Positions 40,701 through 43,700 of a stretch of DNA of 64,000 nucleotides are shown here, piece by piece. The translations under genes were made by a program, and so were the position numbers. The notes under the pieces are model-generated. The model was not told the DNA's origin and searched no databases. It was given only the letters and a program-made list of their open reading frames with translations. The stretch covers positions 52,430,788 through 52,494,787 of the forward strand of contig CM120640.1 in assembly GCA_051362555.1 (NCBI GenBank). Reading direction: 5' to 3'. This DNA comes from Lingula anatina. Lineage: Eukaryota; Animalia; Brachiopoda. The first letter of the stretch is position 1, and each line of letters opens with the position of its first letter.

Positions 40701-43700
40701 GGCGGAACAATCCGGACGAGACCGAAACCATGTGTACCGCCAGCGCTAACGCTGGCGGTACAATAAGTATATCAGTGTACATGTATAGTAATCACACCTC
40801 CGCATCTATTCTGTCCATTTTTTTAGGTTGATTAAAATCAGCATGCAATGTGAGGACATTACCATATGAACAAGTTTGATCTTACAGTATTTTATTCTGA
40901 TTCTTTTCTAACCTACTTACGTAGAAAAATACCTTCACCCTCACCTCAAGCAATGTTATAGTTCCCACTAGATTGTTATTATAGTAGAGCAGTGGTAAAT
41001 CACAGGATTCTCCAACAGCTTTCAGGCCAGCTATGTGTATCACAAAGCCAATGTCTCCATGCTAGGAAAGAGAAGCATAGAAACAGAAATGACACTTCCA
41101 TTTTGTCCCAATTTATCCATCCTGAAAACTGCTTTACCTTATCCTGTTGGACCTAGAAGCCTTAATCTGGAACATACCAGATTAGAACCAATATACCAGT
41201 AACATCATTAGTACTATGTGACATCAAAACAGTCTTCATACAGACTTAAGGCAAGAATGTTTTAATATCATATAGTAAAAAAAAATGTCACCAGCTTTGT
41301 TCCACACCAGACCAAACATGCTGCAAGGGAAGTTTGTGTTTAGCTGATGTGTTATTGCCCAATGACCAGCTGATATTAGGTGCAAAGATCTTCATCAAGT
41401 GATATATACTGGGGTATGTTATATCTGCAATACCATAAAATGTGGTGGAATTAAGAAGTTCAGTTTATCAGTTGTTTTTTGATATTTCATTTCAAAAGAC
41501 AAGATTTCTTCAATGAAGGCTGAAATATCTTATTTTGCTATCTACACATACATCATCCTGTTCCCTTTAGACTTTATAAAATTAACTAATCTGCACACTG
41601 ATGCTACTGAACTTCTTAAATCCATAAAATGAAATAAGTGTTCATAGATATTTTGCTTATACTCTTACCTCAAACAAATTTATAGTTGTAACAACATTAT
41701 TATCATAGTATATTATTGGAAGATTAAAGGACTCTCCTACTGCTTTCAAGCCAGCAAAGTGGATAACACAACCGATGTTATTCTGAGGGCAAAAAAAAAT
41801 GGATTTATTGCATCTACATTTTATAACTGGATCCTGCTAGTTGGAGGAAAATAAAATCAGTTAAATCAGATGTAGAATGGAATACAACTTATATAACAAT
41901 ATATTTCAGCTGTAAAAAATGCATGATAATAAAACATCATGATCATTGTCAGTTCCATAATATATGATGAGCAACTGCAAGTAATAACAATGTTCTGTGT
42001 TTTTCAAAATCTAAAACTAACTGATACTCAAGTCCCAGTTCTTTTTCAATGTTTTACAAAAACTATACACAAGTAAATATTAGTGACAGTAATAATGGTA
42101 AAGGTGATGCAAAAAGACTAAAATCAACACAAAGTTTTATGTAGCAACTTATCATTACCATCACCACTTGCAGCTTACCTTTTTAAAAACCTGTCTGACA
42201 GCATCCTTGTCTAGTAAGTCAACCTCATAGAAAGGAATTGTTGTCTTGGTTATTTCCTCACACCTCTGCAGGCTCACTATAACACCATTGGGATCTTTAA
42301 AGGTTAACAAAATGACACCAGGGTTAGTTTATTAAAGCCCTTACCGAGGGTATCAATGTTAGAGAGACACGTACTAGTACACTCATCCTTGGGTTTTGAG
42401 CATTGGAAAGGACACCATTCCATGAAAGTCTGTAAAATTTAGTCTACTTTGACAGACTAATTAGGTAGTATGTGGAGCATGTAGTGGTCAACTTAATTAC
42501 TGCAACTGTTTGTCTAAACATCACTCAATTCCCACTTTAAATGAACAAGCCCAATATTTTCATACAGGGTACAACACCGATTTATGCTGGGTCAAAGTGG
42601 ACCACTCATATTTCTAATGATAATGGTCCCTGGTTCCGAACATTCCAACTTGCTCTAAACCATAGTTAATTACCCCATCCCCCACCCCCCAACAGTTTCA
42701 GTAGGCATGCCAGACATCACAGCCACTTTTAAGCTTAAAAGCTGAACATACAGTAATTTAGCGAGAAACCCCTTGGAGATAGGTCGATCCTGCTAGAACG
42801 ATTCAGGCATAGAAATGGGGACATAAACAGGGATGTGTGTTTCCTAGCACCAAATACAAAGGGTATGTCTGGAAAAGAATGCATTCCTGTTGATTATGTG
42901 AAATCCCACTGAGTGTGATCCAGACTAGCTATAGTGGGCCCCGTTGTCAGAGAGTAAAGATCTGATATATCTTTTCATCTTTTATTTCACACACTATTTA
43001 TAACCACACTTATTTCACTACTACTGATGATATGAGAGGATAATTTATACCATGATGGGTATAAAACCTGCCTATAACAGTATGTTTTATGGTTATACAC
43101 CTGTAGAAATAGGTACAATATTTGAGAAACTTGTACGTATGAAACATTTTTTCTACAGTCATGTGGAATCATCAAGGGCAAGACTAAACTATCTTAACAC
43201 CATATAATGCCTAACAAATTTAATATAAACAAAACACAACATTTAATTGTGACTTTTTTTAGCAGCCAAACATTGTTCCATCATGTTTCTCATCAAAATC
43301 CATGTTACAAACAGAAAACTCTAAAAATTGGCTACATACTGATCCATACTGGCTCAACTGACATTCAATTTGTTTTCTGAGGTAAAATCAGTGTCAACAT
43401 TCTTAGGCAGGTGAATAAATAACAAAGTCATTTTACACCTCATACTTTTCTTCAGGACAAATACAGTCACAAAGATTTATCTTTTTTTACCTTATTAAAG
43501 GTACCCCTCAAAAAGTGCCCTTACTTCCACCCCTATCATTAAAACTGTGTCACCCACAGAATCCTGAAATCTGGGACTTGTAACAATAGTCTAGTAATAT
43601 CACTTTCAAAGCTGTACACATTTTGAATATTAAGTGGAAAAAATGGAAAATGATGTCTTTGCCTTTTACCTCTTCATTTCATTAATTGGAAAAGGGCTAC

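What the first reader, a model, noticed from the sequence alone, without database searches (positions are those of the whole stretch)
40945..41782. Duplicated, probably mutually exclusive exon 3 in UDP-glucose 4-epimerase
Seen: two intact homologous phase 0-0 exons (114 and 117 nt), 607 nt apart, each with good splice sites, sharing GLKAVGES but otherwise diverged (HFAG vs HIAG; NVVTT vs NLVGT). Neither appears in the ORF track. Known: this segment is part of the NAD-binding fold, so including both or neither should break the enzyme. Inference: regulated isoform switching in a housekeeping epimerase. Neither frame nor spacing forces exclusivity, so an RNA-structure or protein-based mechanism is implied. 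GALE-A's single exon 3 resembles 3b more, giving up to three epimerase variants from the locus.
Basis: partly seen in the sequence, partly recalled or inferred. Interest (0 to 1): 0.78.

Follow-up and report, generated by a model that had tools for sequence, protein, structure and literature searches.

The report
Twin alternative exons in brachiopod epimerase
A sugar-epimerase gene (GALE) of the brachiopod Lingula carries two old, intact copies of one exon; RNA reads show both are spliced in, one much more often, likely one per mRNA, which would give two enzyme forms differing in the cofactor loop and dimer helix, a new case of a well-known kind of splicing.

Summary
Observation confirmed. On the minus strand, exons 3a (41669-41782, 114 nt) and 3b (40945-41061, 117 nt) are intact phase 0-0 duplicates 607 nt apart in a Lingula anatina GALE gene. 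RNA-seq from 8 runs: exon 2 joins 3b in 44 reads (6 runs) and 3a in 6 reads (1 run); 3b joins exon 4 in 25 reads. No 3a-3b, 3a-4 or 2-4 junction reached the 3-read listing threshold, so my reads do not prove exclusivity. RefSeq already models both forms (4 of 7 with 3b, 3 of 7 with 3a, none with both or neither). The pair is old (dS about 1) and under purifying selection (dN/dS about 0.2). No second copy was seen in other animals examined. Frame, U12 sites and a distant branch point do not explain exclusivity. The 3a-3b intron is unusually structured (z -4.3) and holds a candidate two-state RNA switch, predicted from one sequence only. An earlier scan note reports twin exons at another position in an arthropod-type GALE (unchecked). 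Verdict: real, new member of a known kind, moderate interest.

The parts
45870..45899 (-). 3' end of a non-coding first exon of GALE-B (its 5' limit not determined)
   Evidence: loose read ends at 45443 in 3 runs map here exactly; GT donor
45308..45443 (-). GALE-B coding exon 1 (ATG at 45440; GGAGYIG motif); alternative donor at 45293 adds 15 nt
   Evidence: (joints 42294-45308 and 42294-45293)
42179..42294 (-). GALE-B exon 2, common upstream exon
41669..41782 (-). exon 3a, minor alternative (38 aa, [11 protein letters not shown])
   Evidence: 2-3a junction in 6 reads, 4 start places, run X7; RefSeq X2, X5, X7
41062..41668 (-). 607-nt intron between the twins; predicted strongly structured
   Evidence: MFE -164.3 against shuffle mean -133.6, sd 7.2, 0 of 100 shuffles; most structured of 14 introns or intron pieces
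41630..41645 (-). candidate switch segment (intron about +24 to +39): predicted to pair either with the 3a donor (41672-41664) or with the 3b branch-point region (about 41106-41088)
   Evidence: prediction from one sequence only; no covariation test possible
41446..41624 (-). predicted long stem in the 3a-3b intron, 19-nt arms 95% complementary, arms unique in the window
41195..41295 (-). second predicted long hairpin in the 3a-3b intron
   Evidence: pair probabilities 0.7-0.9
40945..41061 (-). exon 3b, major alternative (39 aa, [11 protein letters not shown])
   Evidence: 2-3b junction 44 reads in 6 of 8 runs; 3b-4 in 25 reads in 4 of 8 runs; RefSeq X1, X3, X4, X6
37000..37176 (-). GALE-B exon 4, common downstream exon (YGKTK catalytic motif)
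   Evidence: loose ends at 40941 match its start
34709..36696 (-). GALE-B exons 5-9
   Evidence: 3b form equals RefSeq X3
25885..31563 (-). tandem paralogue GALE-A, 9 exons, 351 aa, intact, single exon 3 at 28860-28973
   Evidence: no internal stop, 68% identical to GALE-B

Best explanation
Exon 3 of the Lingula GALE-B gene was duplicated in tandem long ago, both copies stay intact and both are spliced to exon 2, 3b mostly and 3a as a minor form, likely one per mRNA, which would give two epimerases differing only in strand beta4, the NAD/sugar loop and the dimer helix. Shown: both exons join exon 2; 3b joins exon 4; 3a is skipped in most mRNAs; all residues invariant in the homologue set are kept in both. 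Inferred: 3a joins exon 4 directly (RefSeq models only), and co-inclusion is rare. How exclusivity is enforced is not shown. The mechanism I commit to, at about 0.3, is competing RNA pairing inside the 607-nt intron: one short segment either hides the 3a donor (3b is used) or hides the 3b branch-point region (3a is used). Splicing-factor control takes most of the remaining probability. The likely functional effect is tuning of stability, dimer contacts or kinetics rather than a change of substrate class, because the specificity residue (human C307; Ser here) lies in shared exon 8.
For: Junctions: 2-3b 44 reads in 6 of 8 runs, 2-3a 6 reads in 1 of 8, 3b-4 25 reads in 4 of 8. In X6-X9, 3b has 33 incoming 2-3b reads against 25 outgoing reads, so no surplus points to extra input from 3a. 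RefSeq: 4 of 7 models with 3b, 3 of 7 with 3a, 0 with both or neither. dN 0.22, dS 1.02 over 38 codons; intron flanks no more alike than shuffles. Both exons keep V85, H87, A89, K92, A93, V94, G95, E96, S97, P101, Y104 and N108 (human numbering), all 120 of 120 in the homologue set. The model of the 3a form has pLDDT 92 and TM 0.95 to human GALE. Intron structure: z -4.25, 0 of 100 shuffles; antisense z -2.3; 12 of 13 other pieces between -1.1 and +1.0. Its first and last 45 nt pair at -20.6 kcal/mol, 2 of 3000 shuffles, while the 19 other end pairs all had p of 0.10 or more. The two states are within 1 kcal/mol; forcing the 3a donor open gives the 3b-hiding pair at 0.99, and forcing the 3b acceptor region open gives the donor-hiding pair at 0.85.
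Against: No 3a-4 junction reached 3 reads in any of 8 runs, so the missing 3a-3b row is uninformative (chance of under 3 at mean 4 is 0.24). In X6 the 3a coverage extends into both introns with 0 junction reads. 3a scores lower than 3b on the animal profile (70 against 95 bits) and carries F98, I102, I103, D106 and F116 (each 0 of 120) and T111 (1 of 120). The RNA switch was found after looking and depends on window size (p 0.018, 0.001, 0.033, 0.17 for 35, 45, 60, 80 nt). It ranks only 7th of 324 real-end cross pairs, and the coupling is just 1.6 kcal/mol. In a longer context fold the end-to-end stem was not dominant. GALE-B intron 5 is also structured (z -3.6), and 8 of 105 window tiles, one of them overlapping this intron, hold an equally strong stem.
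Confidence: 0.78

Rival explanations
1. 3b is the only working exon. 3a is a leaky, slowly decaying spare copy whose product is weak or irrelevant.
For: 3a is minor (16 against 55 reads at one position in each exon) and absent from X4 and X5. It is the more deviant copy. It shows two amino-acid differences between sources (residue 4 G versus S in RefSeq; residue 20 N to K in X7-X9) plus one silent change, while 3b shows two silent changes only.
Against: After dS of about 1, with flanks no longer alignable, the frame, both splice sites and all invariant residues survive; dN/dS is about 0.2. Both polymorphic positions are variable in the family. In X7 and X9, 3a reaches a third to a half of exon-3 reads.
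Confidence: 0.13
2. 3a is a cassette exon included in front of 3b. The in-frame 38-residue duplication would likely disable the enzyme and act as an off switch.
For: Nothing in frame or spacing forbids it, and my reads never show where the 3a donor goes.
Against: 0 of 7 RefSeq models hold both exons. 3b has no surplus of outgoing over 2-3b incoming reads (25 against 33 in X6-X9). A poison role would not need NAD-binding residues conserved in 3a.
Confidence: 0.06
3. Assembly artefact or collapsed alleles or paralogues.
For: RefSeq's 3a differs from the window by one residue, so more than one haplotype or version exists.
Against: The copies are 27% diverged, and the same exon 2 is joined to each across GT-AG introns of the exact genomic lengths, 396 and 1117 nt.
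Confidence: 0.01

Closest known systems
Tandem exon duplication-derived substitutions / mutually exclusive homologous exons (236 human events catalogued in PMC8373072; passages seen)
   Same: Adjacent homologous exons of similar length and the same phase, one per isoform, swapping a homologous protein segment.
   Different: [quoted passage not shown] This one was seen only in Lingula. The main text of that paper has no mention of GALE or epimerase (supplementary list not read).
OGDH exons 4a/4b (PMC7969005; passages seen); PKM and KHK twin exons (recalled)
   Same: A housekeeping metabolic enzyme tuned by a swapped internal exon.
   Different: OGDH exclusivity is enforced by branch points 25-41 nt from the upstream donor with a long AG-free zone. 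Here the AG-free zone before 3b is only 31 nt.
ATE1 exons 7a/7b, competing pairings R1R3 and R3R4 (PMC7797038; abstract and passages seen)
   Same: One shared element pairs with either of two regions that overlap splice signals, so only one exon is exposed.
   Different: ATE1 hides one of two 3' splice sites and is proven by conservation and compensatory mutants. The Lingula candidate would toggle between the upstream exon's donor and the downstream exon's branch region, and is an unvalidated single-sequence prediction.
Human GALE (PDB 1ek6, 9hi0) and RefSeq Lingula anatina XP_023931446-52 (isoforms X1-X7)
   Same: Same fold (TM 0.95, 66% identity). The RefSeq models are this gene and already contain both exon forms.
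   Different: No swapped exon 3 was seen in other animals examined. The RefSeq entries are automated models, and I found no paper on them.

Membership tests
Mutually exclusive tandem-duplicated exons | Adjacent homologous exons, same phase, similar length | tested here: met
   114 and 117 nt, phase 0-0, 25 of 38 residues identical
Mutually exclusive tandem-duplicated exons | Each exon spliced to the common upstream exon | tested here: met
   2-3b 44 reads, 2-3a 6 reads
Mutually exclusive tandem-duplicated exons | Each exon spliced to the common downstream exon | tested here: inconclusive
   3b-4 25 reads; 3a-4 below the 3-read threshold in all 8 runs, present only in RefSeq X2, X5, X7
Mutually exclusive tandem-duplicated exons | Not co-included and not both skipped | tested here: inconclusive
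   no 3a-3b or 2-4 row in 8 shallow runs; 0 of 7 RefSeq models with both or neither
Mutually exclusive tandem-duplicated exons | Both copies under purifying selection | tested here: met
   dN 0.22, dS 1.02 for the pair, 38 codons; not resolved per branch
Steric (distant branch point) exclusion, OGDH type | Very short intron, or long AG-free zone with branch point near the upstream donor | tested here: not met
   intron 607 nt, AG-free zone 31 nt; branch point not mapped
U2/U12 spliceosome incompatibility | One exon flanked by minor-class splice sites | tested here: not met
   donors gtaagc, gtaaga, gtgagg are major-class (U12 consensus recalled)
Frameshift plus NMD exclusion | Double inclusion or skipping shifts the frame | tested here: not met
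   both lengths are multiples of 3
Competing RNA structure (docking/selector, ATE1, Dscam) | One element with two alternative partners near splice signals | tested here: inconclusive
   a two-state candidate inside the 3a-3b intron; of 17 segment pairs scanned only the intron's pairing with itself beat all shuffles, and no docking site in the flanking introns stood out
Competing RNA structure (docking/selector, ATE1, Dscam) | Cross-species conservation with compensatory changes; mutational rescue | not testable with these tools
   no genome held and no second lingulid DNA available
UDP-glucose 4-epimerase GALE (extended SDR) | GxxGxxG, YxxxK, GALE fold | tested here: met
   GGAGYIG, YGKTK; model TM 0.95 to human GALE

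The most novel reading that the evidence does not exclude
The intron between the twins is a self-contained two-state RNA switch: one short segment masks either the upstream exon's donor or the downstream exon's branch point, with no outside docking site. It toggles, by tissue or condition, between two GALE forms with different dimer helices and sugar-loop residues, so that homo- and heterodimers tune UDP-sugar supply in a brachiopod.
Probability: 0.15. Interest if true: 0.65.

Novelty: new member of a known kind. Interest (0 to 1): 0.38.

Why it matters
GALE balances the UDP-Gal/UDP-Glc and UDP-GalNAc/UDP-GlcNAc pools. The swapped segment covers positions where single human changes cripple the enzyme (G90E no activity, V94M under 5%, Y105C about 10%; PMC3168732, passages seen) and most of a dimer-interface helix. 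Two natural versions in one protein background are a clean experiment on what this segment tunes. The locus also shows gene duplication and exon duplication acting side by side on one enzyme. If the intron switch holds, it is a compact and easily tested variant of RNA-structure-driven exon choice in a phylum where my searches found no such study. Against this, the event class is well known, the isoforms are already in RefSeq, and the event seems confined to one lineage.

Tried and rejected
No whole genome is held, so there was no genome-wide repeat check of the intron stems. No indexed RNA holder was listed; raw-read runs of the same species label were laid instead, 8 of 9, with 6-30% of each read. 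I did not lay reads across intron 3b-4, because it holds long repeats, so joins to exon 4 were read as loose ends. A protein search with exon 3a alone returned mostly unnamed, bacterial-looking proteins and no animal twin; the profile from that set (3a 112 bits) is circular and is not used as support. The metagenome pattern scan gave 7 loci, each with one exon-3 copy; only L001 is an intron-rich animal-like gene spanning exons 2-4. Twelve non-Lingula clusters (62 listed proteins) showed no exon-3 swap: members differed by at most 6 residues, against 14 in Lingula; 10 proteins in 3 clusters could not be read with my motif, and only 15 of 78 oyster-cluster members were listed. A fold without alignment failed (pLDDT 37). 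The first duplex script timed out. The tool's z of -8.35 (20 shuffles) was replaced by -4.25 from 100 shuffles. The tree used mis-set GALE-A coordinates and is discarded; one search is the corrected one. Rfam: three weak matches far below gathering scores. No complex prediction was run, since a GALE dimer would pass by likeness to solved structures. Literature: no paper on GALE twin exons or this Lingula gene in searches (open-licence library only; supplements not searched).

Full report
Observation. The window holds two GALE genes in tandem on the minus strand. The upstream one (GALE-B, coding 45440-34709) has two copies of exon 3: 3a at 41782-41669 (114 nt) and 3b at 41061-40945 (117 nt). 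Both are phase 0-0 with AG/GT ends and lie 607 nt apart. An HMM from 200 homologous segments finds three copies of the exon in the window: 3a, 3b and the single exon 3 of the downstream paralogue GALE-A. Exon 4 matches a Lingula anatina RefSeq protein at 100%, and the spliced 3b form equals isoform X3 exactly.

Existing annotation. The RefSeq cluster lists seven isoforms. X1, X3, X4 and X6 carry 3b; X2, X5 and X7 carry 3a; none carries both or neither. RefSeq's 3a has Ser where the window has Gly at residue 4. The models also vary a 15-nt longer exon 1 donor and an 18-nt shorter exon 2. The event is therefore already in automated annotation. I found no paper on it (open-licence library only, supplements not searched).

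RNA evidence. Nine raw RNA runs were listed; eight were laid on the repeat-free part of the locus, with 6-30% of each run read. Exon 2 to 3b: 7, 9 and 7 reads (X4, X6, X7) and 8, 9 and 4 reads (X8, X9, X5), 44 in all; X1 and X2 had almost no coverage. Exon 2 to 3a: 6 reads from 4 start places in X7, 0 in X1, X4 and X6, and below the listing threshold in the second set. 3b to exon 4, read as loose ends whose letters match the start of exon 4: 3, 7, 9 and 6 reads (X6-X9). No row appeared for 3a-3b, 3a-4 or 2-4. Because 3a-4 is missing too, the missing 3a-3b row proves little. One weak pointer: 3b has 33 incoming 2-3b reads and 25 outgoing reads in X6-X9, so no surplus suggests input from 3a. Counted at one position per exon, 3a has 16 reads and 3b 55, with uneven shares (0:8, 0:6, 2:9, 5:11, 1:12, 8:9; permutation p 0.028). 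Reads include mates, some 3a reads are unspliced, and study, library and genotype are confounded, so regulation is hinted at, not shown.

Evolution. 3a and 3b share 73% of bases and 25 of 38 residues, with dN 0.22 and dS 1.02. Their intron flanks are no more alike than shuffles. The duplication is old and the pair has been under purifying selection. GALE-A is intact (351 aa, 68% identical to B) and groups with B in a quick tree of 25 proteins without exon 3 (SH-aLRT 90, below the 95 mark). Its exon 3 is further from both twins (dS 1.55 and 1.75) than they are from each other, which fits exon duplication inside B after the gene duplication; these dS values are near saturation. No swap was seen in 12 other clusters, mostly molluscs, or in 7 metagenome loci. 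No other named brachiopod or phoronid appeared among the hits, so the age within Brachiopoda is open.

Protein. In the model of the 3a form (pLDDT 92; TM 0.95 to human GALE) exon 3 spans residues 78-115: strand 80-85, the short helix 92-95 and most of helix 99-119. Counting helices as in the Aspergillus structure, this is alpha5, which with alpha6 forms the dimer interface; F84 (backbone) and K88 there bind NAD (PMC3792076, section 13 read), equal to human F88 and K92 (numbering). Human G90E, V94M and Y105C strongly cut activity (PMC3168732, passages). Among 120 distinct segments from 179 of 212 mostly animal hits, both exons keep every invariant residue. 3b is unusual at F84 and I88 (0 of 120 each) and has one extra residue. 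3a is unusual at F98, I102, I103, D106, F116 (0 of 120 each) and T111 (1 of 120), mostly along the dimer helix. Read variants give one silent and one N-to-K change in 3a and two silent changes in 3b. The substrate-class residue (small Cys or Ser for bifunctional enzymes, bulky Tyr or Leu for UDP-Gal/Glc only; PMC6668579, passages) lies in shared exon 8 and is Ser in B. So the swap more likely tunes stability, dimer contacts or kinetics than substrate class; this is inference.

Mechanism of exclusivity. Both lengths are multiples of three, all donors are major-class, and the AG-free zone before 3b is 31 nt. That argues against NMD, U2/U12 incompatibility and the OGDH-type distant branch point (PMC7969005, passages). 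The 3a-3b intron folds better than 100 of 100 shuffles (z -4.25), more on the sense strand than the antisense (-2.3), and more than 13 other introns or pieces, although intron 5 reaches -3.6. Its ends are complementary (2 of 3000 shuffles at 45 nt; the other 19 end pairs p 0.10 or more). A segment near +24 to +39 is predicted to pair either with the 3a donor or with the 3b branch-point region; the states are within 1 kcal/mol, and opening one signal closes the other (0.99 and 0.85). This resembles ATE1 in logic (PMC7797038, passages). Against it: the test was made after seeing the fold; it weakens at other window sizes; it ranks 7th of 324 cross pairs; the coupling is only 1.6 kcal/mol; which state dominates changes with the flanks folded; 8 of 105 window tiles hold an equally strong stem; and no covariation could be tested. 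I give it about 0.3.

Verdict. The feature is real and expressed, and most likely a mutually exclusive exon pair with 3b major and 3a minor (0.78). It is a new member of a known kind (PMC8373072, passages), already present in RefSeq models and seen here only in Lingula. Interest 0.38.

Noticed in passing
window 26246-26360 (GALE-A exon 8) versus 35008-35122 (GALE-B exon 8): At the position of human C307, GALE-A has Leu ([10 protein letters not shown]) and GALE-B has Ser. Among 169 hits read, 149 have Cys, 18 Val, 1 Ser, 1 Phe. By the rule in PMC6668579, GALE-A would likely act on UDP-Gal/Glc only and GALE-B on N-acetylated sugars too. GALE-A also has S91 and I94 (0 of 120 each). Its expression was not tested.
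   Followed up: partly
window 45293-45308 and 42276-42294: An alternative exon 1 donor (+15 nt; 4 reads in X6) and, in RefSeq, an exon 2 acceptor 18 nt further in, vary the loop after the second strand by up to 11 residues.
   Followed up: partly
window 37950-40760: Intron 3b-4 holds a 146-nt tandem array (4.9 copies), a 49-nt palindromic array and an 817-nt-spaced duplication at about 98% identity, likely mobile-element derived.
   Followed up: no
window about 29280-29830: Long inverted repeats in GALE-A intron 2, seen by eye and as a high-scoring tile; looks like a miniature inverted-repeat element.
   Followed up: no
window 42655-42717: A short intronic stretch draws many reads with loose ends and opposite-strand joints in X1 and X4, probably a repeat transcribed elsewhere in the genome.
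   Followed up: no
window 36146-36515: GALE-B intron 5 also folds better than shuffles (z -3.6, 12 shuffles).
   Followed up: no
runs X7-X9 on window 41026-42221: These three runs share five fixed differences from the window in exons 2, 3a and 3b, four silent and one N to K; in X7 the 5' UTR exon also differs. This suggests a diverged population.
   Followed up: partly
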